From contig JAFSDM010000042.1 in assembly GCA_017436225.1 (NCBI GenBank), positions 38,346 to 102,345 on the forward strand: a stretch of 64,000 bases of DNA, in the 5' to 3' direction. The notes under the pieces are model-generated. The model ran no database searches. It saw only the letters and a list, made by a program, of their open reading frames with translations, and was not told the origin of the DNA. Shown one piece after another: positions 2-48,013 of this stretch; position 1 is the first letter of the stretch, and each line of letters begins with the position of its first letter. The DNA comes from Clostridia bacterium. GTDB taxonomy: Bacteria; Bacillota; Clostridia; Oscillospirales; Acutalibacteraceae. Both the position numbers and the translations under genes were made by a program.

Positions 2-406
2 AAGCTCACTCTCGAGGAGGTTAAGCAGGCTATTGCTCGCGCAGAAGAGGTTGGTCTTGCAACTATCGTTTGCGCAGATACTGAGGAAGAAATTAAGGCT
101 ATTGCTGAAATGAATCCCGATATTCTTGTTGCTGAGCCTAGTGAGCTTATTGGCACAGGTATTGCAGTTGGCAGAGAGTATGTTGACGCTTGTATTGACC
201 TTGTAAAATCGGTTAATCCTGAGATTATGGTGCTTCCTTCTGCAGGTATCAGCTGCGGCAACGACTGCTATAACATTATTATGGCAGGTGCAGATGGCTC
301 CGGTTCAAGCAGCGGTATATGCAAAGCAGAAGACCCCGCTGCAATGGCAGAAGAAATGATGGCGGCAGTAAGAAAGGCTTATGACGAGCGGGAGGGTAAG
401 GCTTGA
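2..406 (+). CDS. triosephosphate isomerase-like protein (archaeal-type TIM family); 5' end lies outside the window
   Basis: Frame is open from base 2 (KLTLEEVKQAIARAEEVGLATIVCADTEEE...). The EPSELIGTG motif resembles the archaeal-type TIM active-site loop. Its stop overlaps the next gene's start (TTGA). Confidence 0.6.
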   Translation, partial: KLTLEEVKQAIARAEEVGLATIVCADTEEEIKAIAEMNPDILVAEPSELIGTGIAVGREYVDACIDLVKSVNPEIMVLPSAGISCGNDCYNIIMAGADGSGSSSGICKAEDPAAMAEEMMAAVRKAYDEREGKA

Positions 407-1803
407 AATACCTACTTGGAGCTGACATAGGCACAACTTCTTTAAAAGCATCGGTTTTTGATACCGATGGTAATATGATTAAGAGTGTAACGAAAGATTA
501 CACTCTTATCGTGTCAAACGATGAGGTAGAATTCCCTGCAGATGATTATTTAAAGCTCTTTGAAGAAGCTTATGCGGAAGTATCTGAAGGGCTTGAGGTT
601 TCTGCCTTTGCTATTGACACACAGTGCGAAACACTTATTGTTACCGATGAAAACGATAAGCCTTTAATGAATGCGATTGTGTGGCTTGATAACCGTGCAG
701 CTGCTGAAGCTGATAAGATTAAAGCTCACTTTGGCACCGAAAAGGTTTATAATGTTACAGGTCAACCCGAAATTACTGCCACTTGGCCCGCATCAAAGCT
801 TTTATGGATTAAGGAAAACAAACCCGAAATTCATAAGAACATTAAAAAAGTATTTTTGCTTGAAGACTACCTTTTATACCGTTTAACAGGTAATTTTGTA
901 ACCGAAAAAACCCTTCAGTCCTCTACCATCTATTACGATATTAAGAAGGACTGCTGGTGGGATGAAATGCTTGAATTTATAGGTGTTAATCCCGATTGGT
1001 TGCCAAAGCTTTGTAACAGTGCCGAAAAGGTTGGCGAATATAAGGGTGCCGCAGCCGTTACAAGCGCGATTGACCAAATTGCAGGTGCAATCGGCGCAGG
1101 TATTACAGATACCAGCGTTGTTAGCGAAATGACAGGCACCACTATGGTTATTTTTGCTCCTTGCAACGAAGTACCCGCTTTTAACCCAAATAGCATTGTT
1201 CCCTGTCACAAAAATTATGACGGAAAATATTGCTTGCTTTCTTGGACTCCTACCGCTGGTATTGCACTTAAATGGTTTAAAAATAACTTCTGTGAAAACT
1301 TTAGCTTTAGAGAGCTTGATGAACTTGCAGAAAGCGTTCCCGCGGGAAGCGCAGGTCTTACCTTCCTGCCCTACCTTTGCGGTTCTACAATGCCAAAATA
1401 CAATCCCGATGCAAAGGGCGCTTTTATGGGTCTTACTATGGAGCATACCAGAGCCCACGCCGTTAGAAGTATTTTGGAATCGGTTGCCTGTATGCTAAAA
1501 GCAAATCTTGATTACCTTGGTGTTTCAGTTAGCGAAATTCGCTCTATGGGCGGCGGTGCATCAAGCCCGCTTTGGTGTCAGATTAAAGCAGATATGACCG
1601 GTAAAAACATTGCTATTCTCGAAAATAACGAAACCGCTTGTCTTGGCTCTGCAATTCTTGCAGGTGTTGGTGTTGGTATTTTTGATGACGTTACATCGGT
1701 TTGCAAAAAATTAGTTAAAACCAAAAAGGTTTATACTCCTAGTAATACTGATTATTCTGAATGTTATAAAAAATTCTGTGATATGGAGGAAAAAACAGTA
1801 TGA
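403..1803 (+). CDS. FGGY-family carbohydrate kinase (xylulokinase-like)
   Basis: 466 aa. N-terminal LGADIGTTSLKA and C-terminal GGGASS motifs are typical of FGGY kinases. TTG start with GGAGGG RBS upstream; ATGA overlap with the next gene. Confidence 0.85.
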   Translation: MKYLLGADIGTTSLKASVFDTDGNMIKSVTKDYTLIVSNDEVEFPADDYLKLFEEAYAEVSEGLEVSAFAIDTQCETLIVTDENDKPLMNAIVWLDNRAAAEADKIKAHFGTEKVYNVTGQPEITATWPASKLLWIKENKPEIHKNIKKVFLLEDYLLYRLTGNFVTEKTLQSSTIYYDIKKDCWWDEMLEFIGVNPDWLPKLCNSAEKVGEYKGAAAVTSAIDQIAGAIGAGITDTSVVSEMTGTTMVIFAPCNEVPAFNPNSIVPCHKNYDGKYCLLSWTPTAGIALKWFKNNFCENFSFRELDELAESVPAGSAGLTFLPYLCGSTMPKYNPDAKGAFMGLTMEHTRAHAVRSILESVACMLKANLDYLGVSVSEIRSMGGGASSPLWCQIKADMTGKNIAILENNETACLGSAILAGVGVGIFDDVTSVCKKLVKTKKVYTPSNTDYSECYKKFCDMEEKTV

Positions 1804-3146
1804 GCAAAATTGCTTTTGTAGGCTTCGGCGAAGTTAATACTCCTATTGACATTATTGTTAATAAATGTAAAGCTGCTGAAGACTCTCTTTTAAAAGAAGG
1901 TCTTGACCTTGTTAGCGTATATCCCGTAACCGATGATTACGAAGAAAAGGATATCGCTAAGGCTTATGCCGCTTTGGAAGGTCAGGATTTTGACTGTATG
2001 GTAGTTTGCATTGCAGGTTGGATTCCCACCCACGCAGTAGTTAAAGTTACCGAAAAATTCCGCCACGTTCCTATGGTTTTATGGGGTCTTTGCGGTTGGA
2101 AGGAAGGCGACAGAATTGTTACCACCGCTGATCAGGCAGGTACAACCGCTCTTCGCAAAACCTTCCGCGATTTAGGCTACAAATTCAAATACGTTTACGA
2201 TATCATCGGTAAACCCTCTAACTCTAAAAAGGTTGCCGATTTTGCAAAGGCTGCATCTGCCGCTAAAGAGCTTCGCTTTGCCCGTGTTGGTATGGCAGGT
2301 TACCGTGATATGAACCTTTACGGAACCCTTTATGATGGTAGCTCCTTAAAGCGTGATATTGGTCCCGAAATTGAGACCTTTGAAATGCTTGAGATTAAGC
2401 AACGCTATGATGCTATCACCGCAGAGCAAAAGGCTGAAGTTATTGACAACGTAATGTCCAAATGGAACTTCCTTAAACCCGCAAAGCGTGAGGGTATGGA
2501 AATGGCAGCAGGTTATTACCTTGCTATTAAATCCCTTATTGATGAGCGCGGCTACAAGGCAATTTCTCTTAAAGACGTTGACGGTATGAAGAAGCTCTTA
2601 GGCTTCCCACCTGCACCTATCTTTATGCTTCTTGCAGATTGTGAAGGCGTTTCCACCATTCCCGAAAACGACTCCCTTGGTAACGTAACTCAGCTTATGG
2701 TTAAGGCTCTTACAGGTCAGTGCGGCGCTTACCTTGAATTCTATGAATTCTTTGAAGATAGCGTAATCGCAGGTGTGCCAGATTACATTCCAAAGGAAGT
2801 TACAATGGGCGAAACCACCGTTATGCCTGCCGCATTTGGTGAACTTTCTGAAGGTATTTTGAACGTTTCCAAAGTTAAGACCGGTGAGCTTACTATGTGC
2901 CGCCTTTTCTATGAAGATGGCAAATACTTTATGCATATGGTAACCGGCGAAGGCAAAACTCCACCTAAGTGGGAAGAAGCAGGTTGGACTCAACCCGCAC
3001 CTCAGCTACCAGGATTACAAATCTTCCTTGATGATGTGGAGAAGTTTGCTCAAAACGTTATGTGCCAGCACTATATCATTTCGTACGGTGATAACACCGC
3101 TATCATTAAGGATTTATGTGATATCCTCGGAATTGATATTATCTAA
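1800..3146 (+). CDS. L-fucose/L-arabinose isomerase-family protein
   Basis: 448 aa. Overall resemblance (by eye) to the fucose/arabinose isomerase superfamily. Translationally coupled to the kinase gene. Confidence 0.6.
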   Translation: MSKIAFVGFGEVNTPIDIIVNKCKAAEDSLLKEGLDLVSVYPVTDDYEEKDIAKAYAALEGQDFDCMVVCIAGWIPTHAVVKVTEKFRHVPMVLWGLCGWKEGDRIVTTADQAGTTALRKTFRDLGYKFKYVYDIIGKPSNSKKVADFAKAASAAKELRFARVGMAGYRDMNLYGTLYDGSSLKRDIGPEIETFEMLEIKQRYDAITAEQKAEVIDNVMSKWNFLKPAKREGMEMAAGYYLAIKSLIDERGYKAISLKDVDGMKKLLGFPPAPIFMLLADCEGVSTIPENDSLGNVTQLMVKALTGQCGAYLEFYEFFEDSVIAGVPDYIPKEVTMGETTVMPAAFGELSEGILNVSKVKTGELTMCRLFYEDGKYFMHMVTGEGKTPPKWEEAGWTQPAPQLPGLQIFLDDVEKFAQNVMCQHYIISYGDNTAIIKDLCDILGIDII

Positions 3147-3160
3147 GAAGGTATTAAGCG

Positions 3161-3835
3161 ATGGAATATATTTTAGATACTGCCGATTTAGAGGCAATTA
3201 AACACTGTAATGAATTTTATCCTCTTGCAGGTGTTACCACCAACCCCTCTATTATTGCAAAGGAAAACACCGACTTCTGGACTCTTGTTAAAAATATAAG
3301 AGATATCATTGGTCCTGATAAGCTTTTCTTTGCTCAGACAGTTCAAAAAACTGCCGATAAAATGGTTGAAGAGGCTTGTCTTTTAAATGAAAAAACCGGT
3401 GGCAAATTCTGTGTTAAAATTCCTATCTCTGAAGAAGGTCTTAAGGCTACAAAAAGGCTTAAGCAATTAGGTATCAAGGTTCTTGTTACCGCTATTTTCA
3501 CACCTGCACAGGCTCTTATTGCCGCCAGAGCAGGCGCTGACTACGTTGCTCCTTACGTAAACCGCCTTGATAACATCATAGGTGATGGTTGCTACGTAGT
3601 TTCGGAGATTGTAAAGCAGTTTAACATTTACAACCTTCCCTGTAAGGTACTTGCCGCAAGCTTTAAAAATGCAGAGCTTGTTCACAAGTGCGCAGTTGCA
3701 GGTTGCCACTGTGTAACCGTTACAGATGATATTCTTAAAGCCGTTTTATCACATCCTATGACAGATGCCGCTGTTGAAGGCTTTGAAAAGGATTGGGAAA
3801 GCGTATACGGTGACAAAACTATTCTTGATTTTTAG
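3161..3835 (+). CDS. fructose-6-phosphate aldolase / transaldolase-family protein (Fsa/TalC size class)
   Basis: 224 aa. N-terminal LDTADLEAIK...GVTTNPSII motif is characteristic of small transaldolase/Fsa enzymes. Confidence 0.85.
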   Translation: MEYILDTADLEAIKHCNEFYPLAGVTTNPSIIAKENTDFWTLVKNIRDIIGPDKLFFAQTVQKTADKMVEEACLLNEKTGGKFCVKIPISEEGLKATKRLKQLGIKVLVTAIFTPAQALIAARAGADYVAPYVNRLDNIIGDGCYVVSEIVKQFNIYNLPCKVLAASFKNAELVHKCAVAGCHCVTVTDDILKAVLSHPMTDAAVEGFEKDWESVYGDKTILDF

Positions 3836-8189: not shown

Positions 8190-9044
8190 TCAAAACAACC
8201 TAAGTTTTCTTGTAACTAACTGTCCATCGATTATTAAATAACTATATAATTTACCATCATACCCTACCTCAATCTGATGCCCGTCAATTTCAGCCTTAAG
8301 GGAATGGGCGACCTCAAAAAGCGCCTCGATTTCATCATATACATTACCGTTAATTACCAGTTCGTTAACCTTTTTTACCCTACGGTATACTATTGAAAGA
8401 CCTATCTCGTTAGATTCAAGCAAAACTCTAGACTTCACATTATTATCAGCAATTCTAATAATTGCAGAATTTTTAGCTTCTGATACTGCTTTTTCTGTTT
8501 CCCCGAAATCTTTATATTCTAAAAATTCCTCCTGTTTTTGCGGTAATTTCTTAAGCTTTAAATTAGCACTAACTCCCATAGAAAGAGAAATTATTACCCA
8601 AATATGAAAAACAATATCAATAATATTATCCATTTGAACGCCCCAAAGAGCGAGCAGAGCCACGGTATCAATCACAAAGAAAACTAATGCGAAAATAAGC
8701 CAGCCTACTTTATGTTTTTTTGAAAAAAGCCAACTGAGAAAATATAGAAGCACAATTCCCAAAGCAACACCCATAAAAATCGCAAAAAACGATGGGTCTA
8801 AAAACGCAAAATTAAAAAGTTCCTCGCCGTAAAATTCTGCAGGATACATTTTGCATAGAAACATTCCCGTATCAACTAATGCATACGGAATATATGCTGA
8901 AAAAAGAAAATATGTATCACTTTCTATAACCAACAATATAAGATTTATTATGGTAAAGGCGATCACTAATAACAAATTATTGCGTGACCGCTTGTGCTTT
9001 ACCTCAAGAATTTCTCTATTCGATACAGTATTTGGTATTGACAT
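8190..9044 (-). CDS. hypothetical multi-pass membrane protein with a soluble C-terminal domain
   Basis: 284 aa. Several hydrophobic segments in the N-terminal two thirds. No family recognised by eye. Confidence 0.6.
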   Translation of the reverse strand: MSIPNTVSNREILEVKHKRSRNNLLLVIAFTIINLILLVIESDTYFLFSAYIPYALVDTGMFLCKMYPAEFYGEELFNFAFLDPSFFAIFMGVALGIVLLYFLSWLFSKKHKVGWLIFALVFFVIDTVALLALWGVQMDNIIDIVFHIWVIISLSMGVSANLKLKKLPQKQEEFLEYKDFGETEKAVSEAKNSAIIRIADNNVKSRVLLESNEIGLSIVYRRVKKVNELVINGNVYDEIEALFEVAHSLKAEIDGHQIEVGYDGKLYSYLIIDGQLVTRKLRLF

Positions 9045-28506: not shown

Positions 28507-29357
28507 TTTACCTTCTCCTTAAAAATTACGGCGTTTTGACTTTCTTCCAAACCAACGTAAATTATATTTCCTAAAATGTTTTTAAATCTCTCTATATTTA
28601 AAAGTTCAAAGGCATTCTCCGCCTCGCCAATGCACATATTAAGCGATGGCAATACTCTTTGCTTTAAAAATTCGTTTATGTTATTTTCTTTAAGCTCTGA
28701 CTTAAAGGGATTGTAGCGGTTTTTCTTTATATCTTTTTCTAAATCTGCCGTAGCATCTAAAATATAAATCCATCTACCAATAACATACCCAAGCCGCTCT
28801 AAAGCCCTTGTTTCGCCATCAGGCGAGCAGAGAGCAAAAAGCGATGACAGCATTTTTGCGGTTGGCTCGGCGGCAATATCAATATCGGTTTCGTTTCTGC
28901 TTTCTAAATCATTTTGCGCCTTTAAATAATCCTTAAAAATCATATCAAGTTCAGGATATTTTGCGGCGGCTTTTTTATAGCCTGATTTAGAAAAAAGCCT
29001 TAAAGCCCTATAGCCTATTCCCTTTAAAAAGCCTTCGTCTGCAATATTATCGTTAAGCTTTGAATAAAGCATTATCTCAGCGGCGGCGGTTGGCATTTCA
29101 GGGAGCTCGCCCACACACAAGAAATTGCATTTTTTAAGGGGATTACAAACGCACCTTTTACGCTCGGTAGGGGCACAGCCACCCCTAAGCGACATATGAA
29201 GAAGCGACAGAAAGGTAAAATCATAGCTCAGCGAAAACCTTGAAACCAAGCCGTACTTTTTACCTAAATCACGACAAAGCGAGCAATAAACCGCTTTGTA
29301 AAATTCAAATTCTTTAATTCTAAGCTCGGGCTTGTACGCCTTTACATAGCCAAACAC
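28503..29357 (-). CDS. DUF5685-like protein
   Basis: 284 aa. The N-terminus MFGYVKAYKPELRIKEFEFYKAVYCSLCRDLGKKYG matches my recollection of the DUF5685 family. Its stop overlaps the J-protein start (ATGA). Confidence 0.6.
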   Translation of the reverse strand: MFGYVKAYKPELRIKEFEFYKAVYCSLCRDLGKKYGLVSRFSLSYDFTFLSLLHMSLRGGCAPTERKRCVCNPLKKCNFLCVGELPEMPTAAAEIMLYSKLNDNIADEGFLKGIGYRALRLFSKSGYKKAAAKYPELDMIFKDYLKAQNDLESRNETDIDIAAEPTAKMLSSLFALCSPDGETRALERLGYVIGRWIYILDATADLEKDIKKNRYNPFKSELKENNINEFLKQRVLPSLNMCIGEAENAFELLNIERFKNILGNIIYVGLEESQNAVIFKEKVK

Positions 29358-29423
29358 GGCTTATCACCCCCTTTTAATAATTTTAGTTTACAATAGTAGG
29401 GCCGCCAATAGTTTAATAATGTG

Positions 29424-32264
29424 TTAATTATTAAGAATTTTTTTAAGAAAACGACCTGTGTGAGATTTTTCACAGGCGGCAACCTCTTCGGGAGTACCTT
29501 CACAGACAACCTCGCCACCCTTATCGCCGCCTTCGGGACCTAAATCTATAATATAATCGGCGGTTTTAATAACATCTAAATTATGCTCTATAACAAGCAC
29601 GGTGTTGCCTGTTTCTACAAGATGCTGTAAAACTTCTAAAAGCTTGTGAACATCGGCAGTGTGAAGACCTGTGGTTGGCTCATCTAAAATATAAATTGTT
29701 TGACCTGTAGCTCTTCTTGCGAGTTCGGTAGCAAGTTTTACACGCTGAGCCTCACCACCCGAAAGAGTGGTTGCAGGTTGACCGATTTTAACGTAACCTA
29801 ATCCAACGTCACAAAGTGTTTTTAGCTTACGGTGAATTTTTGGTATGCTTTCAAAGAATTTTGTAGCTTCTTCGGCAGTCATTTCCAAAACGTCGTAAAT
29901 ATTTTTGCCCTTATACCTTACCTCCAAGGTTTCACGGTTATAGCGTGTGCCGCCGCATACTTCACAAGGCACGTAAACATCGGGCAGAAAATGCATTTCG
30001 ATTTTTAAAATACCGTCACCCTGACAGGCTTCACAACGACCTCCCTTAACGTTAAAGGAAAATCTACCGGCATTATATCCCTTTGCTTTTGAATCCTTGG
30101 TTGAAGCAAAAAGCTCTCTGATATCATTAAAAACGCCTGTGTAGGTGGCAGGGTTTGAACGGGGTGTTCTGCCTATTGGGGATTGGTCAATATCTATTAC
30201 CTTATCTAAAAGCTCAATTCCCTCGATTTTTTTGTGCTTACCCGCAATTCTGCGAGCGCCCATAAGCTCGGCTTCAAGCTTTTTATAGATTATGGAATTA
30301 ACAAGCGAAGATTTACCCGAGCCCGAAACACCCGTAACCGCAACAAAGCAACCAAGCGGAATTTTTATATTTACATTTTTAAGATTGTTTTCGGCGGCGC
30401 CTATTACCTTTAGGTAGCCTTTTTTATGCTCACGTCTGATTTTTGGTACTGGGATTTTTCTTCTTCCTGAAAGGTACTCGCCCGTTATGGAATTTTTGCA
30501 CTCCATAATCTCTTTCGGGGTGCCTGCGGCAACAATTTCACCGCCGTGTACGCCCGCACCGGGACCAATATCCACAATATAATCCGATTCAAGCATTGTT
30601 TCTTCATCGTGCTCCACCACGATTAAGGTATTACCCAAATCTCGAAGCTTCTTAAGGGTGGCAAGTAGCTTTTCGTTATCACGCTGATGAAGACCTATAC
30701 TGGGCTCATCTAAAATATAAAGCACACCCATAAGCGAGGAGCCAATTTGAGTAGCCAAGCGAATTCTTTGGCTTTCACCGCCCGAAAGGGAGCCTGCGGC
30801 ACGTGAAAGATTAAGGTATGAAAGACCTACGCTTTTAAGGAAGTTAAGACGGTTTTTTATCTCCTTACAAACAGGACGGGCTATTACCTCATCACGCTTT
30901 GAAAACTCTATTTTTTCAAAGAAATCTAAAGCATCATCTACCGACATTTTGCAGACATCATCTATATTCTTTTCGCCTACCGTAACAGCAAGTGCTTCGG
31001 GGCGAAGTCTTTTTCCTTTACAATCGGGGCAGTTGCACTCGCTCATAACCATTTCAATTTCGGCGCGCATCCAGTCACTTGAAGTTTCTTTATATCTGCG
31101 CTCAAGATTATTAACAACGCCTTCAAACTGCGAAAGATACTCTCCCCCCGCCCACTCATTATTGCGGGTAAATTTGATTTTTTCCTTTGTGCCGTAAAGA
31201 ATAACCTTTTTTGCCTTTTCGGGGATTTTTTTAAAGGGGGTGTTTATATCAAAACCAAAATGCTCGGCAATACCTTTATAGTACATAGCAGCTATGGTTT
31301 CGCCATCGCCGCCTTTAAAGGGGTGAATTCCCCAACCGCTAGCCTTAATAGCATATTCCATAAGAGATTTTGAATCATCGGGAATGAGCAAATCTACGTC
31401 TACCCTTTTAAAATACCCAAGACCCGTACAGGTAGGACAGGCACCAAAAGGATTATTAAAAGAGAACATTCTTGGGCTTAAATCGGGTATGCTGATGCCG
31501 TGGTCGGGACAGGCGTAGTTTTGTGAGAATAAAAGCTCCTCTCCGCCCACTACATCTACCACTATAAGTCCGTTTGTAAGACTGCTTGCGGTTTCTATGC
31601 TATCTGCAAGTCGGCCTCTGATTTCCTCCTTAATAACAAGGCGGTCAACCACTATTTCAATGGTGTGTTTAATATTTTTATCTAAAGAAATTTCTTCCGA
31701 AAGGTCGTACATACTGCCATCAATACGCACGCGAACATAGCCCGAACGCTTGGCTTTTTCAAGCTCCTTTGCATATTCGCCCTTTTTGCCACGCGCTATT
31801 GGAGCCATTATTTGAATTCTTGTACCGCTTTCAAGCTCTAAAATTTTATCTACTATGCTATCGACCGTTTGACCGTGAATTTCTCTGCCGCAAATCGGAC
31901 AGTGCGGTGTGCCGACTCTTGCAAAAAGAAGTCGCAAATAATCGTAAATTTCGGTAACGGTACCAACGGTAGAGCGAGGATTTTTAGAGGTTGTTTTTTG
32001 GTCGATGGAAATGGCGGGCGAAAGGCCCTCAATGCTTTCTACATTAGGCTTTTCCATTTGACCCAAAAACATTCTGGCATAGGAAGAAAGGGACTCCATA
32101 TATCTTCTTTGACCTTCGGAATAGATTGTATCAAAGGCAAGCGAAGACTTTCCCGAGCCTGAAAGACCTGTAAAAACAACAAGCTTATCACGCGGGATTT
32201 CTATATTAACATTTTTTAAATTATGCTCTTTTGCACCCTTTATTACAATAGACTCCCTTGCCAT
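29424..32264 (-). CDS. uvrA: excinuclease ABC subunit A
   Basis: 946 aa. Two ABC modules ([18 protein letters not shown]), zinc-finger cysteines and LSGGE signatures. Confidence 0.97.
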
Positions 32265-43657: not shown

Positions 43658-44605
43658 TTAATAAAAGGTGGCAACTTCTTGCTCGGGAAGAGAGGTTCTG
43701 GCAATATCTTTAAGGTATAAAACGGGTCCCTGTCTGCCATAGAGCTTATTAAATTCTACTCTGATTTCGGCGGTAACGATAGCCCAATCACGACTTGTAT
43801 ACTGCGATATTGCGTTTTCGTTACCCAAAAGCAAAAATCCCGCAAATGTAATATCGTCAACACAGCAGGTCATTATATGTCTGCCAATAACAAGCTGATT
43901 TGCGGCTAACTGATGGTTTTTAGCCACAACACACTTGAATTTTACCGTTTTACCGTTATAAAAATCTAAATTTTCTGAAACATCACGGTAAAAATATGCG
44001 TAATCCTTATCCTTTACTGCAACAATATCAGCATCGCGGTCAAAGGGAAGCGGGTCTTCAATATCATCGTACTCAACATCACCGTTTGGGAATTCATAAG
44101 CGATTTCTGCCCTAGTATTAACGCCGCGAACAATTTTGTGAAGCTCCATTTTATCAATATCACGGTTATAGCGGTTAAAAACAACAAGCTCACAGTTTTG
44201 AAGCTTATCTACAACCAAATTTCGCATATTACTATTGTAGCTTATAATTGTGTTGGCATCGGCAAACATAAACTCCTGCGCTATTACCCAATTATCAGGC
44301 AGGGCGTTTATAAGACTTGCAAGCTGCCACATACCGTTGTATTCCACAAGCACCCTTTTTGCAGAGTGCTTTTTAAGCAAGCTTTTAAGAAGGGCAGGGT
44401 TTAAATCTTCTTCGTTTTCAATGGTTTCAATATACACCTTGCTTGAAGAAAATTTGCTCTCATCGTATTCTTCAATTCCTTCTTCACAAAGCAAAATGAG
44501 GGTCTTTTCACCGTTATTAAAGCGAATATCTTCCATGGTTTCTTGAACAAACTTGGTTTTTCCCGCCTCTAAAAAACCGGTAAAAAGGTAAACAGGTATT
44601 TGCAT
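43658..44605 (-). CDS. G3E/CobW-like GTPase paralogue lacking the CxCC motif
   Basis: 315 aa. N-terminal GFLEAGKT P-loop. Directly downstream of the COG0523 gene. Confidence 0.65.
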   Translation of the reverse strand: MQIPVYLFTGFLEAGKTKFVQETMEDIRFNNGEKTLILLCEEGIEEYDESKFSSSKVYIETIENEEDLNPALLKSLLKKHSAKRVLVEYNGMWQLASLINALPDNWVIAQEFMFADANTIISYNSNMRNLVVDKLQNCELVVFNRYNRDIDKMELHKIVRGVNTRAEIAYEFPNGDVEYDDIEDPLPFDRDADIVAVKDKDYAYFYRDVSENLDFYNGKTVKFKCVVAKNHQLAANQLVIGRHIMTCCVDDITFAGFLLLGNENAISQYTSRDWAIVTAEIRVEFNKLYGRQGPVLYLKDIARTSLPEQEVATFY

Positions 44606-44611
44606 AACGAA

Positions 44612-45727
44612 TTAATCCTCCAAATAGAAAAGAGCTTCCAATGCGTTTTCATCAATATCGGCGCCAATTACACAAACTCTGCCAATAACCGCAGGCGCAC
44701 CGCTTCTTACATCTGCCTGACCGGGTACATAATCAAAATAAATCCATTCGCCCTCGCCCTTAACATAGCCCTTGGCGCGAAGAACAGAGCCGTACTCACC
44801 ATCATCAATTGAACTTAAAATGGCTTCAATCTGCTCCCTTGTGAAGGAAGTAGTGATTTCCTTACCCCAGCTTGCAAACACCTCATCGGCGTGGTGATGG
44901 TCGTGGCAACCACAATTACATTCCTCGCCGTGGTCGTGGTGATGATGCTCGTGATGGTTATGATGACAACCGCAATCGCACTCTTCGGAATGTTCGTGAT
45001 GGTGATGGTGTTCGTGATTATGGTTGTGGTCGTGGCAACCGCAAGTACATTCTTCACCGTGCTCGTGATGATGCTCGTGGTGGTGATGCTCGTGGTGCTC
45101 CTGCTCCAGCTCACTTTTTAAAGAGTCTATACTTTCGCTTTGCTCCATAGCGTTTAAAATATCAAGTCCGCTAAGCTGATCTATAGGGGTTGTAATAATA
45201 GTTGCTTTTTTGTTTTTATCACGTATGATTTCGGTGGCTGCGGCTACCTTTGTAGCATCTGCAATATCGGTACGGCTAAGCACTATGCAATCGGCATGCT
45301 CAATTTGATTGCCGAAAAACTCGCCGAAATTTTTCATATACATTTTGCATTTAACGGCATCTACAACGGCGGTTGCGCTATTTAAAACAACCTCTTCGCT
45401 TAAAACGCCGCTCACCGCTTTGACAACATCGCTAAGCTTACCAACGCCCGATGGCTCAATTATAATTCTGTCGGGCTTAAAACGTGTTAAAACTTCCTTT
45501 AAGGAAGCATCAAAATCGCCAACAAGACTGCAACAAATACAACCTGAATTCATTTCCTTAATTTCAATACCTGCATCCTTTAAAAAGCCGCCGTCAATAC
45601 CTATTTCGCCAAATTCGTTTTCAATAAGTACAAGATTTTCACCCGCGTAGGCTTCCTTAATAAGTTTTTTAATAAGGGTGGTTTTTCCGGCACCTAAAAA
45701 GCCTGAAAAAATATCTATTTTGGTCAT
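44612..45727 (-). CDS. COG0523/CobW-family metallochaperone GTPase with a His/Cys-rich insert
   Basis: GFLGAGKTT P-loop and GCICCS (CxCC) motif. The insert has three HEHxxEEC(T/D/N)CGCH modules and long His runs. Confidence 0.85.
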   Translation of the reverse strand: MTKIDIFSGFLGAGKTTLIKKLIKEAYAGENLVLIENEFGEIGIDGGFLKDAGIEIKEMNSGCICCSLVGDFDASLKEVLTRFKPDRIIIEPSGVGKLSDVVKAVSGVLSEEVVLNSATAVVDAVKCKMYMKNFGEFFGNQIEHADCIVLSRTDIADATKVAAATEIIRDKNKKATIITTPIDQLSGLDILNAMEQSESIDSLKSELEQEHHEHHHHEHHHEHGEECTCGCHDHNHNHEHHHHHEHSEECDCGCHHNHHEHHHHDHGEECNCGCHDHHHADEVFASWGKEITTSFTREQIEAILSSIDDGEYGSVLRAKGYVKGEGEWIYFDYVPGQADVRSGAPAVIGRVCVIGADIDENALEALFYLED

Positions 45728-45753
45728 TTAATATCCTTCTTTCAAAAAGTTAC

Positions 45754-45789
45754 TAATAATTATTATACCAAATATTTTTATATTTTCAA
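45754..45789 (-). promoter_or_regulatory. promoter with overlapping palindromic operator candidate for the metallochaperone operon
   Basis: Minus strand: TTGAAA (45784-45789), 16 nt spacer, TGG-TATAAT (45762-45767). The 12-bp palindrome TAATAATTATTA (45754-45765) overlaps the -10. Confidence 0.5.
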
Positions 45790-45840
45790 GTGGCATAGGA
45801 CCTGCTTTTTTAGCAGAAGCTTTAAAGCGAATAATCGCGC

Positions 45841-46233
45841 AAAAAACCGCCCTGCCAACGCTCGACAGGGCGGAATCAAATAATCTTATTTTTCATAGCC
45901 TCATATTATTTACGGCTTTTAAGCCAATTTTTAATTTACTTTAATAGCCTACTTTAAATTTAGCTAACTTAACATTAGCCTTATTTCTTAGTACATTGGA
46001 CTCACCCTTCTTTAAGATTCTTTATACTGCCCAAGCGGCATATTAATTGAAATCTTAAAAGCAATTATGAGTTTTTTCATAAGAATCTCCTACCTTGGGT
46101 TTTATGCGTTTTACCCAAGCCCTTGTAGGCAACCCTATCTAGGTAAAACGGCTGAGTACCATGGTTCATTGTTCATTGGATTCAGCCCCTTTCGTAAATT
46201 TTGGTTTGCTTTTTATTTATCCTTCCTTTTTCT
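45841..46233 (-). ncRNA. orphan ~390-nt transcription unit (candidate structured ncRNA and/or micro-ORF transcript); family not identified
   Basis: Bounded by a consensus promoter and a strong terminator (CCGCCCTG...CAGGGCGG plus T6). No ORF above 22 codons. Several internal stems. Confidence 0.35.
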
Positions 46234-46239
46234 GTCTTT

Positions 46240-46268
46240 ATTATAGCAAGAGTATAACCATTTGTCAA
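46240..46268 (-). promoter_or_regulatory. perfect consensus sigma-A promoter driving the orphan transcript
   Basis: Minus strand: TTGACA (46263-46268), 17 nt spacer, TATAAT (46240-46245). Confidence 0.6.
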
Positions 46269-46347
46269 GTGCTTTTTGTAAAAAATTTCAATTTTTTTAT
46301 AATTTGTTGATAACTTTTGTTAAAATTAAATAAATAGGTTGTTTTTG

Positions 46348-46376
46348 TTGACTTATTAAATTATTCGTGATATAAT
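46348..46376 (+). promoter_or_regulatory. near-consensus sigma-A promoter for scfA-scfB
   Basis: TTGACT (46348-46353), 17 nt spacer, TATAAT (46371-46376). Confidence 0.6.
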
Positions 46377-46408
46377 AATATATATTCATTGCAATGGAGG
46401 TTAATGTT

Positions 46409-46561
46409 ATGAAGCATATTAAAACAATTGAAACTCGTAATCTTTGTGACAGTGCAAAAAACGGCGGTTGCGGCGAATGTCAGACTTCTTGTCAGTCTGC
46501 TTGCAAAACCAGCTGCGGCATTGCTAATCAACAGTGCGAAAACACCGAAGAGAGCAAATAA
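46409..46561 (+). CDS. scfA: SCIFF (six-cysteines-in-forty-five) ranthipeptide precursor (50 aa; below the ORF-track cutoff)
   Basis: Manual translation gives MKHIKTIETRNLCDSAKNGGCGECQTSCQSACKTSCGIANQQCENTEESK, which carries the GGCGECQTSCQSACKTSC signature. RBS GGAGG. Confidence 0.9.
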   Translation: MKHIKTIETRNLCDSAKNGGCGECQTSCQSACKTSCGIANQQCENTEESK

Positions 46562-46578
46562 TTGAATTTTTTAAAATT

Positions 46579-46601
46579 AGCCGCTCTAAGCGGCTTTTTT
46601 T
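46579..46601 (+). terminator. intrinsic terminator/attenuator between scfA and scfB
   Basis: Stem AGCCGC / GCGGCT with a 5-nt loop, followed by T7. Confidence 0.7.
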
Positions 46602-46633
46602 ATGATATATTACTTTTTATTGGGTGATTTTTT

Positions 46634-48013
46634 ATGATACATCAGTACAAGCTGGGCGGATACAATATTGTTTTGGATATTTGTTCGGGCTCGGTTCACG
46701 CGGTAGATGATATTGCCTATGATATTATTGAAATATTTGAAGATAAGTCTCAAGGCGAGGTTATTAATGCCATAAGCCAAAAGCATCTTGGAAAAAACGG
46801 CGTTACGGCAGAAGATATTGCAGAATGTTATGACCAGATTTTAGAGCTTAAAAATTCGGGTAAGCTTTTTGCACCCGACACCTTTGAGCCTATGGCAGGC
46901 ACCTTAAAGCAAAAAACCTCAGGTGTTGTTAAGGCTCTTTGTCTGCATATTGCCCACACCTGTAACCTTAATTGCGAATACTGCTTTGCAAGTCAAGGTA
47001 AATACCAAGGCGAGCGTGCGGTAATGAGTTTTGAAGTTGGTAAACGCGCTTTAGATTGGCTTATAGAAAACTCGGGCTCTCGCCACAATTTAGAGGTTGA
47101 CTTCTTTGGCGGCGAGCCACTTATGAATTTTGAAGTTGTAAAACAGCTTGTTGCCTACGCCAGAAGCATTGAAAAAGAAAAGGGCAAAAACTTCCGCTTT
47201 ACCCTTACCACAAACGGTCTTTTGATTGATGATGACGTTATAGATTTTGCAAACAAAGAAATGAGCAACGTTGTGCTCAGTCTTGACGGCAGAAAAGAAA
47301 TTCACGATAAATACAGGGTGGATTATAACGGCAACGGAAGCTTTGACAAAATCGTTCCGAAATTCCAAAAGCTTGTTAATGCAAGAGGCGGTAAAAACTA
47401 TTATATGCGCGGCACCTTTACACACCAAAATCCCGACTTTTTAAAGGATATTGAAGCTATGCTTGACCTAGGCTTTACCGAGCTTAGTATGGAGCCTGTT
47501 GTGTGCGCTAAGGGCGATCCCGCCGAGCTTACAGCTGAAGACATAACCATTGTTATGGAGCAGTATGAAAAGCTAGCCGAGCTTATGCTTAAAAGAGATA
47601 AGGAAAAAAGGCCCTTTACCTTCTACCACTATATGATAGATTTAACGGGCGGACCCTGTATTTACAAGCGTATTTCGGGTTGTGGCTCGGGCACCGAATA
47701 TATGGCGGTTACCCCTTGGGGCGACCTTTACCCCTGTCACCAATTTGTTGGTGATGAAGCCTTTAAGCTTGGCGATATTTGGAACGGCGTTACCAATAAA
47801 GAAACGCAAAATTCCTTTGCCGCTTGTAATGTTTACGCCCGAAAAGAATGTAAGGATTGCTGGGCAAGGCTTTACTGCTCGGGCGGTTGCGCCGCAAACG
47901 CTTACCACGCTACCGGCGAAATAACAGGCATTTATAAAGATGGCTGTGAGCTATTTAAAAAACGTATGGAGTGTGCAATAATGGTACAAATTGCACGTGC
48001 ATTTGGTGACTAA
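46634..48013 (+). CDS. scfB: SCIFF radical SAM/SPASM maturase (thioether-forming)
   Basis: 459 aa. CNLNCEYC radical SAM motif and C-terminal SPASM cysteines. Immediately follows the SCIFF precursor. Confidence 0.9.
   Translation: MIHQYKLGGYNIVLDICSGSVHAVDDIAYDIIEIFEDKSQGEVINAISQKHLGKNGVTAEDIAECYDQILELKNSGKLFAPDTFEPMAGTLKQKTSGVVKALCLHIAHTCNLNCEYCFASQGKYQGERAVMSFEVGKRALDWLIENSGSRHNLEVDFFGGEPLMNFEVVKQLVAYARSIEKEKGKNFRFTLTTNGLLIDDDVIDFANKEMSNVVLSLDGRKEIHDKYRVDYNGNGSFDKIVPKFQKLVNARGGKNYYMRGTFTHQNPDFLKDIEAMLDLGFTELSMEPVVCAKGDPAELTAEDITIVMEQYEKLAELMLKRDKEKRPFTFYHYMIDLTGGPCIYKRISGCGSGTEYMAVTPWGDLYPCHQFVGDEAFKLGDIWNGVTNKETQNSFAACNVYARKECKDCWARLYCSGGCAANAYHATGEITGIYKDGCELFKKRMECAIMVQIARAFGD

What the first reader, a model, noticed from the sequence alone, without database searches (positions are those of the whole stretch)
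45841..46268. Orphan ~390-nt transcription unit with a perfect consensus promoter and strong terminator but no real ORF
**Seen in the sequence**
- On the minus strand there is a textbook TTGACA-17-TATAAT promoter at 46240-46268.
- About 390 nt downstream comes an 8-bp GC-rich hairpin plus T6 (45841-45873).
- The metallochaperone operon has its own promoter downstream of this terminator, so the unit looks independent.
- The longest ORFs are 22 codons (MKKLIIAFKISINMPLGQYKES, with an AGGAG RBS) and 13 codons (MNNEPWYSAVLPR).
- Several stems are visible: CCTAC...CTTGGGT-N12-ACCCAAG-GTAGG, AGATTCTTAT...ATAAAGAATCT enclosing TTATGA-N6-TCATAA, and TGCC-N5-GGCA.
- A ~17-nt direct repeat is present, GGGGCTGAATCCAATGAAC and GGGTGAGTCCAATGTAC (plus-strand 46171-46189 and 45991-46007).
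- The 3' third carries four spaced GGCT(A/T) motifs.

**Inference**
- By eye I could not match it to tmRNA, RNase P, SRP, 6S, a T-box or the common riboswitch classes.
Basis: partly seen in the sequence, partly recalled or inferred. Interest (0 to 1): 0.6.

Follow-up and report, generated by a model that had tools for sequence, protein, structure and literature searches.

The report
Small RNA packed with mini-ORFs
The flagged gap holds a real, separately transcribed RNA gene of about 390 bases from an undescribed family of gut-Clostridia small RNAs, whose conserved core is very strong ribosome-binding sites followed by tiny reading frames, here joined to a folded two-state switch; its cellular role is unknown.

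Summary
There is a 12/12 promoter, a strong terminator, a unit independent of the CobW operon, and no Rfam match. "No real ORF" does not hold.

The unit is conserved in at least 12 other genomes of its genus (Acutalibacteraceae-type gut MAGs). It is a long-form paralogue of an undescribed Oscillospirales RNA family. That family starts with an extended Shine-Dalgarno site plus AUG-UAC-UAA. It ends with a second ribosome site plus a 6-10-codon ORF whose stop lies in the terminator stem. A canonical copy sits elsewhere in the same genome.

The window copy adds three features:
- a 13-15-codon uORF (MNSEPW..) that stays in frame;
- a hairpin plus pseudoknot with 16 of 23 pairs compensatory, and an alternative hairpin that covers the next ribosome site in some relatives;
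- a 22-codon ORF with a coding signature in its AUG-start relatives.

My best reading is a ribosome-engaging RNA with an erm/vmlR-like switch acting on its own mini-genes. Its function is unknown.

Earlier agents of this scan found the canonical family on other DNA (e1-4219337).

The parts
46240..46310 (-). A/T-rich upstream region and sigma-A promoter: -35 TTGACA at 46268-46263, TG at 46248-47, -10 TATAAT at 46245-46240.
   Evidence: One search gives 12/12. The promoter and the upstream CAAAAAAC..TTGACAA are conserved in the 11 homologues that cover it; L005 is cut at a contig end. The same is seen by eye in canonical family members.
46194..46233 (-). Purine-rich 5' leader (AGAAAAAGGAAGGAUAAAUAAAA...). 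The predicted transcription start is near 46233. That gives an RNA of about 393 nt down to 45841.
   Evidence: The start is inferred from the -10 position, with no RNA data. CAGAAAGA(R)-type 5' ends are conserved in the alignment.
46174..46193 (-). Ribosome site 1 (GAAAGGGGCUGAAUCCAAUG). This is the first copy of the family motif and has an extended Shine-Dalgarno sequence.
   Evidence: It is nearly invariant in 13 homologues. The duplex with the 16S 3' tail is -18.5 kcal/mol, in the top 0.3% of 748 long ORFs of the genome. It is direct repeat D1.
46135..46176 (-). uORF1: 13 codons plus stop (MNNEPWYSAVLPR*). The last G of its UAG stop is the first base of the pseudoknot strand.
   Evidence: It is in frame in 13 of 13, with lengths of 13-15 codons. 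The indels are +3, +3 and (+1, +2), and the start is AUG or GUG. pN/pS is 0.45 in frame against 1.1 out of frame in the 13-codon group.
46150..46187 (-). Hairpin P1: GGCUGA (46187-46182) pairs with UCAGCC (46155-46150). It encloses the uORF1 start.
   Evidence: 3 of 6 pairs have compensatory changes (for example GGUUGA/UCAACC and GGCUGU/ACAGCC).
46108..46149 (-). Helix P2, GUUUUACC (46149-46142) with GGUAAAAC (46115-46108). It encloses hairpin P3, GCCU (46130-46127) with GGGC (46122-46119).
   Evidence: In P2, 6 of 8 pairs have compensatory changes. In P3, 3 of 4 do. RNAalifold recovers both on the model-based alignment.
46097..46135 (-). Pseudoknot helix: GGGUU (46135-46131, inside the P2 loop) pairs with AACCC (46101-46097, 3' of P2).
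   Evidence: 4 of 5 pairs have compensatory changes: L006 has GGGCA/UGCCC, L010 has AGGUU/AACCU and L052 has AGCCC/GGGCU.
46087..46129 (-). Alternative long hairpin CCUAC-AAGGG-CUUGGGU...ACCCAAG-GUAGG. It excludes P2, P3 and the pseudoknot, and it covers the 5' part of Shine-Dalgarno 2 (AGGAG, 46091-46087).
   Evidence: It is the minimum-energy fold of the window sequence. L086 carries the compensatory CCUGC/GCAGG. Shine-Dalgarno 2 is covered in this state in only about 5 of 13 homologues.
46012..46080 (-). ORF2: 22 codons plus stop (MKKLIIAFKISINMPLGQYKES*). The N-terminus is basic and the middle is amphipathic.
   Evidence: It is open in 13 of 13 (20-23 codons). The start is AUG in 8 and AUC or AUU in 5. 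pN/pS is 0.34 in the AUG group against 1.1-1.5 out of frame, and 0.80 in the AUY group. It has no Pfam or NCBIfam match.
45988..46011 (-). Ribosome site 3 plus mini-ORF3: AGAAGGGUGAGUCCA AUG UAC UAA. This is the family's hallmark motif.
   Evidence: The identical 23-mer occurs at the 5' end of the RNAs in other Oscillospirales genera. The stop is kept as UAA or UGA. Whole codons are inserted in MYK*/MYR* variants.
45903..45987 (-). Variable 3' region made of degenerate repeats of the AGGCUA(A)UG/AUU unit. It also holds the small hairpin GGCUU-AAA-AGCC.
   Evidence: The region cannot be aligned between homologues.
45876..45902 (-). Weak ribosome site 4 (GAGG, 45902-45899) and ORF4, AUG AAA AAU AAG AUU AUU UGA (MKNKII*, 45896-45876). 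It ends 2 nt before the terminator stem.
   Evidence: It is conserved only in the L001-L006 subclade. It corresponds in position to the family's 3' ORF (MLDIKSEQK type). Its duplex with the 16S tail is only -5.6 kcal/mol.
45841..45873 (-). Intrinsic terminator: CCGCCCUGUCGAGCGUUGGCAGGGCGG followed by U6.
   Evidence: A terminator is present at this position in all homologues.

Best explanation
The unit is a stand-alone RNA gene that works by engaging ribosomes. It is a genus-specific long-form paralogue of an undescribed Oscillospirales small-RNA family.

**The family.**
- At the extreme 5' end it has a ribosome-binding site with unusually long complementarity to the 16S rRNA 3' tail, followed by a 2-3-codon ORF (AUG UAC UAA).
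- At the 3' end it has a second strong site plus a 6-10-codon ORF. The stop codon of that ORF is the first triplet of the terminator stem.

**The window copy.** Four such sites sit in series: uORF1 (13 codons), ORF2 (22 codons), mini-ORF3 (2 codons) and ORF4 (6 codons).

**Inferred mechanism.**
1. A ribosome bound at the strong 5'-proximal sites shields the RNA from 5' decay. This would work like the hbs, spyTA and STAB-SD stabilisers.
2. The 5' domain is a two-state switch. State 1 is P1 plus a P2/P3 pseudoknot. State 2 is a long hairpin that in some species covers the Shine-Dalgarno site of ORF2.
3. A ribosome translating uORF1 melts P1 and P2. It stops on the pseudoknot strand. It thereby sets which state forms and whether ORF2 and the adjacent mini-ORF3 are translated. 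This is the logic of ermC, vmlR and cplR leaders, applied to the RNA's own mini-genes rather than a downstream gene.

**Shown:** conservation, the two folds, frame conservation and the strength of the sites. **Inferred:** translation itself, the stabilisation, the direction of the switch and the cellular output (a small peptide, ribosome loading, or both).
For: **Independent and conserved.**
- There is a single full-length copy in the genome.
- There are homologues in 14 of 18 genus genomes, 11 with the 5' domain by blastn, plus G014 by the covariance model.
- Downstream genes differ and are often convergent.

**Family link.**
- The exact motif AAGGGTGAGTCCAATGTACTAAG occurs in 37 genome loci and in 15 of 400 genomes of the order. 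The reversed control pattern gave no hits.
- Outside the genus it lies directly after a promoter.
- The 3' ORF has its stop inside the terminator stem, with a compensating 3' side, in 20 or more loci.
- A canonical copy lies at G000:C2, about 29262-29665.
- A minimal version of about 120 nt (L083) keeps only the two sites and ORFs.

**Site strength.** Ribosome site 1 gives -18.5 kcal/mol and the C2 5' site gives -20.8 kcal/mol against the 16S tail. That is at or beyond the top 0.3% of 748 long ORFs.

**Structure.**
- 97% of cells are paired, 16 of 23 pairs are compensatory, and 0 of 500 shuffles reach this.
- RNAalifold independently recovers P1, P2 and P3, with 14 of 22 pairs compensatory.
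- The alternative hairpin has one compensatory pair in L086.

**Frames.**
- uORF1 and ORF2 are open and in frame in 13 of 13.
- pN/pS is 0.45 and 0.34 in frame against more than 1 out of frame.
- The mini-ORF gains whole codons (MY*, MYK*, MYR*).

**Known precedents.**
- 3-codon uORF sensors in the vmlR and cplR leaders (PMC9226507, PMC10201436).
- Ribosomes at exceptionally strong Shine-Dalgarno sites block RNase J1 (PMC5737220, PMC12067863).
Against: - There are no expression, ribosome-profiling or probing data.
- ORF2 starts with AUC or AUU in 5 of 13 homologues. It shows no coding signature in that group (pN/pS 0.80).
- The 14-codon uORF1 group shows no coding signature.
- uORF1 overlaps P1 and P2. 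Part of its conservation, including GAACCRUGG, may therefore be structural.
- Sequestration of Shine-Dalgarno 2 in state 2 is predicted in only about 5 of 13 homologues.
- In canonical members the 5' site is not preferentially hidden in a hairpin (56% against 64% in shuffles).
- ORF4 has a weak site (-5.6 kcal/mol) and is lost in half of the genus.
- The register of the pseudoknot alignment was set by hand, which favours the structure.
- The pN/pS values rest on a few related pairs.
- Nothing identifies a cellular target or phenotype.
Confidence: 0.55

Rival explanations
1. The RNA is a protein-sequestering (sponge) or protein-binding RNA of the CsrB/RsmZ kind. On this reading the repeated AAGG(N)UGA(NN)CCAAUG elements are binding sites for a translational repressor or another RNA-binding protein. 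They look like ribosome sites because the protein's normal targets are ribosome sites. The ORFs behind them would be incidental.
For: - The motif copy number varies from 1 to 5 per RNA, with variable spacers. There are two copies in the window, four ribosome-site-like copies each in L013 and L017 (by eye), five in L072 and L073, and tandem gene arrays in L053.
- The spacer UCCA between the Shine-Dalgarno sequence and AUG is conserved, which ordinary ribosome sites do not need.
- The units are strongly promoted, terminated and free-standing.
Against: - The stop codon right after the AUG is kept through UAA/UGA changes and whole-codon insertions.
- The uORF1 frame is kept through compensating indels.
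- In-frame pN/pS is below 0.5.
- Most copies lack the GGA core of CsrA sites.
- No ordinary gene of the genome carries the motif at its start, apart from one loose match, so no regulon is visible.
- No partner gene is linked.
Confidence: 0.2
2. The unit is simply a small-protein operon. Its purpose would be to make the 22-residue amphipathic peptide (ORF2), perhaps a membrane-active or toxin-like peptide as in type I toxin-antitoxin loci or spyTA. The 5' domain would then be its translational lock.
For: - ORF2 is open in 13 of 13. It shows purifying selection in the AUG-start group (pN/pS 0.34).
- It has a basic N-terminus and a hydrophobic or amphipathic middle. L017 carries a more hydrophobic 19-residue version, MFIIIVLTLLFKRFNLKEK (read from the sequence).
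- Long structured 5' leaders that hide the ribosome site are typical of type I toxin mRNAs (own knowledge).
- Polycistronic small-peptide mRNAs with a very strong Shine-Dalgarno site exist (PMC12067863).
Against: - The most conserved parts are ribosome sites 1 and 3 and the fold, not ORF2.
- 5 of 13 homologues have AUC or AUU starts and no coding signature.
- ORF2 is absent from the canonical family, which shares only the mini-ORFs.
- There is no conserved antisense ORF, and only a weak 9/12 promoter-like match on the antisense strand within the RNA.
- There is no family match for the peptide.
- A perfect constitutive promoter is unusual for a toxin.
Confidence: 0.15
3. The unit is a cis-acting leader or attenuator of the downstream CobW-type metallochaperone operon. 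Read-through of the terminator would be controlled by translation of the mini-ORFs or by a ligand binding the pseudoknot.
For: - It is co-directional with the CobW operon, only about 115 nt upstream.
- The architecture of uORF, alternative folds and terminator is that of ribosome-dependent attenuators (PMC9226507, PMC10201436).
Against: - The operon has its own 11/12 promoter after the terminator.
- In relatives the downstream gene is different and is convergent in about half of the loci.
- In canonical members the next gene is often convergent, for example metA or a sigma-like gene.
- No riboswitch family matches.
Confidence: 0.05

Closest known systems
Ribosome-dependent attenuator leaders of ARE-ABCF genes: B. 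subtilis vmlR uORF(MIN), C. difficile cplR uORF(MRI) (PMC9226507, PMC10201436)
   Same: - A 2-3-codon ORF lies behind a strong Shine-Dalgarno site close to the 5' end. The vmlR site is AGAAGGG, which is also the start of the site here.
- The uORF is placed in or next to a 5' hairpin.
- There are alternative folds.
- An intrinsic terminator gives a short, abundant transcript.
   Different: - No regulated gene follows. The unit is free-standing, with variable and often convergent neighbours.
- There are several ribosome sites and ORFs per RNA.
- The last ORF ends inside the terminator stem.
- An H-type pseudoknot is present.
ermC-type translational attenuation (leader peptide plus alternative hairpins controlling the next Shine-Dalgarno site; own knowledge)
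   Same: - There is a 13-15-codon leader ORF.
- Its translation must melt the helices that decide between two folds.
- One of those folds can cover the next ribosome site.
   Different: - The 'regulated gene' is a 22-codon ORF followed by a 2-codon ORF, not a resistance enzyme.
- Coverage of Shine-Dalgarno 2 is not conserved in all relatives.
- No inducer is known.
5' stabilisers made by ribosomes bound at exceptionally strong Shine-Dalgarno sites: cryIIIA STAB-SD, hbs, spyTA/yrzI (PMC4113751, PMC5737220, PMC12067863)
   Same: - There is extended complementarity to the 16S 3' tail (down to -20.8 kcal/mol).
- In canonical family members the site lies within a few nucleotides of the RNA 5' end, which is about the published 'heel-print' distance.
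- spyTA is also a polycistronic small-peptide mRNA.
   Different: - In those cases the stabiliser protects a normal protein-coding message.
- Here nothing longer than 22 codons follows, and the site itself is the most conserved element.
- Stabilisation was not tested.
Dual-function small RNAs (S. aureus RNAIII/hld, B. subtilis SR1/SR1P; own knowledge)
   Same: It is a free-standing, strongly promoted, terminated and structured RNA of a few hundred nucleotides that also carries a small translated ORF.
   Different: - No base-pairing seed or target is identified.
- The ORFs are far shorter and are multiple.
- There is no sequence or Rfam relationship.
CsrB/RsmZ-type sponge RNAs (own knowledge)
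   Same: - A Shine-Dalgarno-like motif is repeated a variable number of times between variable spacers.
- It is a free-standing gene with a terminator.
   Different: - The motif lacks the GGA-in-loop signature.
- Start and stop codons behind each motif are conserved.
- No partner protein is known.
mccA, the 7-codon microcin C precursor gene with ribosome-dependent terminator (Zukher et al. 2014; own knowledge, not re-read here)
   Same: A very short ORF with a strong ribosome site lies immediately before an intrinsic terminator and gives an abundant mini-transcript.
   Different: - There is no conserved C-terminal Asn.
- There is no mccB-like neighbour.
- The peptide sequence is poorly conserved in the window's genus (MKNKII).

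Membership tests
Any Rfam 15 family | A covariance-model match at or above the gathering score | tested here: not met
   There are 0 matches in the whole window. In E-value mode the best hit is E = 0.13, the L10 leader model on the terminator. No hit lies over the RNA in 15 related loci. The canonical copy only matches mir-2363 on its terminator hairpin, below the cut-off.
tmRNA | A tRNA-like acceptor/T-arm domain and a tag ORF without a start codon | tested here: not met
   ARAGORN finds nothing in 44000-48000. Canonical tmRNA is found elsewhere in 17 of 19 genus genomes, including those that carry this RNA. It is missing from the 88%-complete G000 assembly.
RNase P RNA, 6S RNA, SRP RNA | A match to the family model; one copy per genome | tested here: not met
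   All three are found above the cut-off elsewhere in G000: 6S on C21, RNase P on C22 and SRP on C21.
Undescribed Oscillospirales 'two mini-ORF' RNA family (canonical form; also noted by e1-4219337) | The motif (A)AAGGGUGAGUCCAAUG UAC UAA(G) with a 2-3-codon ORF | tested here: met
   An exact 23-mer lies at 46009-45987 (-). The same motif is in 37 and 15 other loci, and the reversed control pattern gives none.
Undescribed Oscillospirales 'two mini-ORF' RNA family (canonical form) | The motif lies at the extreme 5' end, directly after the promoter | tested here: not met
   In the window the exact motif is internal, about 225 nt from the predicted start. A diverged copy (site 1) lies about 40 nt from the start, and a further degenerate purine-rich stretch is at the 5' end. 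Hence I call it a 'long-form paralogue'.
Undescribed Oscillospirales 'two mini-ORF' RNA family (canonical form) | A 3' ORF of 6-10 codons behind a strong Shine-Dalgarno site, with the stop codon inside the terminator stem | tested here: inconclusive
   The window has MKNKII* ending 2 nt before the stem, with a weak site (-5.6 kcal/mol). It is kept only in the L001-L006 subclade.
ARE-ABCF / erm-type ribosome-dependent attenuators | A short sensory uORF with its own Shine-Dalgarno site in the leader | tested here: met
   uORF1 and mini-ORF3.
ARE-ABCF / erm-type ribosome-dependent attenuators | Mutually exclusive RNA folds, one of which hides a terminator or the next Shine-Dalgarno site | tested here: inconclusive
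   Two folds are supported by compensatory changes. Coverage of Shine-Dalgarno 2 is predicted in only about 5 of 13 homologues.
ARE-ABCF / erm-type ribosome-dependent attenuators | A regulated resistance gene immediately downstream in cis | tested here: not met
   Downstream genes vary and are often convergent. CobW has its own promoter.
STAB-SD / strong-SD 5' stabilisers | Extended pairing with the 16S 3' tail near the RNA 5' end | tested here: met
   Site 1 gives -18.5 kcal/mol, the C2 copy -20.8 and the canonical site -16.0. These are the top 0.3%, 0% and 2.3% of 748 ORFs. The 16S tail was read from L024.
STAB-SD / strong-SD 5' stabilisers | The ribosome-bound site lengthens the RNA half-life by blocking RNase J1 | not testable with these tools
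   This needs half-life measurements with the site mutated.
CsrB/RsmZ-type sponge | Multiple GGA motifs in hairpin loops, and a CsrA/RsmA partner | tested here: not met
   The motif core is GGG/GGC-UGA, not GGA. The 5' motif is not preferentially presented in a hairpin. The partner protein was not searched for.
Type I toxin-antitoxin | A small hydrophobic toxin ORF plus an overlapping or adjacent antisense RNA | tested here: inconclusive
   ORF2 is amphipathic, not clearly membrane-spanning. There is no conserved antisense ORF, and the only antisense-strand promoter-like match within the RNA is weak (9/12). Toxicity was not tested.

The most novel reading that the evidence does not exclude
These RNAs form a new class of free-standing 'ribosome-sensing' riboregulators. 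Each RNA is an array of super-strong initiation sites with 2-25-codon ORFs. Its folding, stability or trans-activity would report on the state of translation, for example initiation-blocking antibiotics, release or recycling capacity, or the supply of a specific tRNA. Alternatively it would buffer free 30S subunits. The window's long form would be a derivative that has gained a leader-peptide-controlled pseudoknot switch. No regulated gene is attached in cis, which would set it apart from all known uORF attenuators.
Probability: 0.25. Interest if true: 0.8.

Novelty: new variant of a known kind. Interest (0 to 1): 0.6.

Why it matters
- Oscillospirales are among the most abundant gut bacteria and the least tractable. 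Almost nothing is known about their regulatory RNAs.
- This is a strongly promoted, conserved RNA gene, sometimes present in tandem arrays. Its selected content is ribosome-binding sites with ORFs of 2 to about 25 codons. It does not fit the usual bins of riboswitch, base-pairing sRNA, leader or small-protein gene.
- If translation of such mini-ORFs controls the RNA's own fold and life-time, it extends erm- and vmlR-type logic to stand-alone genes. It also gives a defined model (uORF, pseudoknot, alternative hairpin) that can be tested with reporters.
- It shows that 'ORF-less' intergenic units should be checked for conserved ORFs below gene-caller limits.

Tried and rejected
**Readings rejected**
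- **Known RNA families.** Rfam in gathering and E-value mode, on the window, on 15 related loci and on the canonical copy, gave nothing.
- **tmRNA idea.** It was prompted by the GGGGCUGA start and the missing tmRNA in G000. ARAGORN finds nothing, and canonical tmRNA is present in 17 of 19 genus genomes.
- **Leader of the CobW operon.** Rejected because of its own promoter and non-conserved downstream genes.
- **Coding on the antisense strand (59-aa ORF).** It is not conserved.
- **Conserved 5' hairpin hiding the first ribosome site in canonical members.** There is no enrichment over shuffles.
- **Compensatory change between the third base of the ORF2 start codon and a downstream base (by eye).** The pairs are not in register, so I did not count it.
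- **Long stem AGAUUCUUAU/AUAAAGAAUCU.** It is not conserved.
- **Motif as a general ribosome site of the genome.** It occurs only in the two RNAs, plus one loose match before a 674-aa ORF.

**Searches that added little**
- Phage collection scan: one chance hit and one minimal family member.
- Metagenome scan for the 5' domain: one true homologue only.
- Literature searches found no description of the family.

- The look-up of sequencing runs, so there is no RNA-seq evidence.
- The genome search, so there was no model-based survey of the family or order.
Full report
**1. Observation**

On the minus strand, the scan finds TTGACA-17-TATAAT at 46268-46240 (12/12, with a TG extension). It finds a terminator at 45873-45847 (12 pairs, 8 of them G-C) followed by T6. 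A separate 11/12 promoter for the CobW operon lies at 45789-45762.

The 13- and 22-codon ORFs, the direct repeat and the GGCT(A/T) motifs are all present. The repeat is 23 nt at 78% identity. The GGCT(A/T) motifs number 4 against 0.05 expected.

The predicted 393-nt RNA folds better than shuffles (z = -4.1). Rfam gives no match at gathering score in the whole 64-kb window, and only chance-level hits in E-value mode.

**2. Neighbourhood and organism**

- Upstream and divergent, on the plus strand, lie a SCIFF ranthipeptide gene (46409-46561, TIGR03973) and its radical-SAM maturase (46634-48013, TIGR03974).
- Downstream and co-directional lie two CobW/COG0523 GTPases.
- The genome is a 1.39-Mb assembly, 88% complete, at 40% G+C.
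- Record titles of near-identical loci name Acutalibacteraceae, Oscillospiraceae and 'Clostridia' MAGs from ruminant and human guts.

**3. Conservation**

- The full unit is single-copy in the genome.
- It has homologues in 14 of 18 other genomes of the genus. Four are full-length at 67-73% identity.
- The promoter and its A-tract, site 1/uORF1, the following structured stretch, ORF2 and site 3 all align. The 3' third does not.
- Flanks differ between species. The SCIFF operon is the upstream neighbour in five loci only. The downstream gene varies and is convergent in about half.
- It is therefore an independent gene, not a leader of cobW.

**4. Link to a wider family**

A scan of one genome per species with the motif around mini-ORF3 returned 37 loci. 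Most bear Oscillospirales-type names, apart from two isolate-named records. A scan of 400 genomes of the order with up to 3 mismatches gave 15 more genomes in 10 genera. The reversed control pattern gave none.

Outside the genus the motif sits a few nucleotides after a strong -10 box, so it forms the 5' end of an RNA of 120-450 nt. These RNAs end with a second site (AGAAAGAGAGGU...) and a 6-10-codon ORF. Examples are MLDIKSEQK, MLDNKNHQ and MxDPxxxx. The stop codon (UGA, UAA or UAG) is the first triplet of the terminator stem, and the 3' side of the stem compensates.

- The middle region is variable. In L083 it is almost absent.
- The 5' mini-ORF is MY*, MF*, MYK*, MYR*, or occasionally 16-27 codons. 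The length changes are by whole codons.
- Some RNAs carry 3-5 motif copies (L013, L017, L072/73). L053 carries five family genes in 3.2 kb.
- None of these loci has an Rfam match.
- G000 itself has a canonical member at C2, about 29262-29665, with MYK* and MMLDTKSEQK*.

So the window unit is a paralogue, which I call the long form. In it the exact motif is internal (site 3). A diverged copy heads uORF1 (site 1).

Earlier agents of this scan described what reads as the same canonical family on other genomes (e1-4219337) and what look like related mini-ORF-array RNAs (e1-2838619, e1-3895712). I reached the family independently. I took from those notes the pointer to vmlR-type leaders.

**5. Known housekeeping RNAs excluded**

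6S, RNase P and SRP RNAs are found elsewhere in G000. tmRNA is missing from this incomplete assembly. It is canonical in 17 of 19 genus genomes, including carriers of this RNA. ARAGORN finds nothing at the locus.

**6. Strength of the ribosome sites**

I used the 16S 3' tail read from a relative in the same order (GGAUCACCUCCUUUCU). The duplex energies are:
- site 1: -18.5 kcal/mol;
- the C2 5' site: -20.8 kcal/mol;
- a canonical 5' site: -16.0 kcal/mol;
- site 3: -13.7 kcal/mol.

The median for 748 long ORFs of the genome is -9.6 kcal/mol and the 1st percentile is -17.1 kcal/mol, even though each gene was given its best start. The motif is not used by ordinary genes.

Ribosomes bound at exceptionally strong Shine-Dalgarno sites near a 5' end are known to block RNase J1 and stabilise hbs, spyTA and cryIIIA RNAs (PMC5737220, PMC12067863, PMC4113751). 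That this happens here is inference.

**7. The 5' domain is folded, with two states**

The comparative helices are:
- P1: 46187-82 with 46155-50;
- P2: 46149-42 with 46115-08;
- P3: 46130-27 with 46122-19;
- a pseudoknot: 46135-31 with 46101-097.

On a hand-registered alignment of 13 sequences, 97% of cells pair and 16 of 23 pairs show changes on both sides. No shuffle out of 500 reaches these values, and slid controls collapse. The most telling case is L052, where the pseudoknot is AGCCC/GGGCU instead of GGGUU/AACCC.

RNAalifold on the model-built alignment independently recovers P1, P2 and P3, with 14 of 22 pairs compensatory. The register was chosen by me, which favours the structure.

It is incompatible with P2, P3 and the pseudoknot. 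A metagenomic relative at about 90% identity has CCUGC..GCAGG, a compensatory pair in that hairpin.

The G-rich partner of the pseudoknot's 3' strand is duplicated in most homologues. The duplicate changes together with it in L052. I noted this by eye on the sequences and did not count it.

This points to a bistable element. Only in about 5 of 13 homologues does the second state cover the Shine-Dalgarno site of ORF2.

**8. The ORFs**

*uORF1*
- It is in frame in 13 of 13, at 13-15 codons.
- Its start is AUG or GUG and its stop is UAG or UAA.
- Its indels are +3, +3 and a compensating +1/+2.
- The last G of its stop codon is the first base of the pseudoknot strand. A terminating ribosome would therefore cover the pseudoknot and P3 strands after melting P1 and P2.
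- pN/pS is 0.45 in frame against 1.1 out of frame in the 13-codon group. There is no signal in the 14-codon group.
- Part of its conservation is structural.

*ORF2*
- It is open in 13 of 13.
- pN/pS is 0.34 in the AUG-start group against 1.1-1.5 out of frame.
- Five homologues start with AUC or AUU, and these give 0.80.
- It has no family match.
- Its stop lies 12-18 nt before the AUG of mini-ORF3, on or next to the site 3 Shine-Dalgarno sequence. Termination and re-initiation coupling is therefore plausible, though this is inference.

*ORF4 and the 3' third*
- ORF4 (MKNKII) is positionally equivalent to the family's 3' ORF. It is weakly sited and is kept only in one subclade.
- The GGCT motifs are degenerate copies of its AGGCUAUG site.

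*Antisense strand*
- Antisense ORFs are not conserved.

**9. Interpretation**

The best-supported reading is a stand-alone, ribosome-engaging RNA. Strong 5'-proximal sites load ribosomes, which probably also protects the RNA. A leader-peptide-type uORF and a bistable fold gate the next mini-genes. This follows the logic of the ermC, vmlR and cplR leaders (PMC9226507, PMC10201436), but without a downstream gene.

The rivals are a protein sponge, a plain small-peptide or toxin operon, and a cobW leader. They are weighed in the Rival explanations section.

What the cell gains is unknown. It could be a peptide, a ribosome or translation-state sensor, or a stable regulatory RNA.

**10. Limits**

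- The genome search closed, so the covariance model (R1) could only be run on loci already held. There it found the 5' domain only in the genus.
- All homologues are related, so the counts overstate independence.

Noticed in passing
G000 contig C2, about 29262-29665 (+) (= L081 about 2262-2665): A second, canonical member of the same RNA family lies in the window's own genome. It has the 5' end ACAGAAAGGAAACGGUGAGUCCG AUG UAC AAG UAA and an A-rich middle. Its 3' ORF is MMLDTKSEQK*, with the UAA stop inside the terminator stem. It is convergent with a 279-aa ORF that I read by eye as sigma-factor-like (not run against Pfam).
   Followed up: partly
L053 (Ruminiclostridium sp. MAG), reverse strand, about 330-3260: Five family members lie in tandem within 3.2 kb. 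Their 3' ORFs are MMLDIKNNQ, MLDIKNSR, MMLDNKNSQ, MLDNKNHQ and MLDNKKNQ. A 249-aa ORF follows the first copy; I took it for TraX-like by eye and did not search it. The first copy is a minimal form of about 110 nt.
   Followed up: partly
L072 and L073 (same order), about 1499-1950 on the reverse strand: One terminated RNA of about 450 nt carries five (A)AGG(A)GUGAGUCC motifs. Three are followed by 2-codon ORFs (MY*, MR*, MT*). This shows the motif can be arrayed.
   Followed up: no
L081 2600-2663 (terminator of the canonical copy): The Rfam model mir-2363 matches this bacterial terminator hairpin on both strands (38 bits, E about 1e-5, below its gathering score of 90). It is probably a chance resemblance between palindromic hairpins. 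It might be worth a look if that family derives from gut-contaminated libraries.
   Followed up: no
window 46409-48013 (+): A SCIFF six-cysteine ranthipeptide precursor (TIGR03973, 81 bits) and its thioether-forming radical-SAM maturase (TIGR03974, 761 bits) are transcribed divergently from the RNA. This pairing is kept in five of the twelve genus loci.
   Followed up: partly
L083 (IMG/VR UViG_3300029719_000214), about 8800-8960 (+): A minimal family member of about 120 nt (MYS* plus MLDTKNER*) lies on a contig classed as viral. A CUCCCUCUC tract sits between its two ribosome sites and could act as an anti-Shine-Dalgarno sequence.
   Followed up: no
G000 contig C18, about 20180 (+): This is the only ordinary gene found with a site resembling the motif (AAAGGGGUGAAGCCAUUG, UUG start). 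It precedes a 674-aa ORF that was not identified.
   Followed up: no
G000, whole assembly: No tmRNA gene is detected in this 88%-complete assembly, although 17 of 19 genomes of the genus have one. This is most likely an assembly gap.
   Followed up: partly
L017 (same genus), about 1480-1870 on the reverse strand: This is a variant long form without the P2/pseudoknot domain. It has four ribosome-site copies, with ORFs of 23 (MDKAEPIQF...), 2 (MH*), 19 (MFIIIVLTLLFKRFNLKEK) and 2 (MY*) codons.
   Followed up: no
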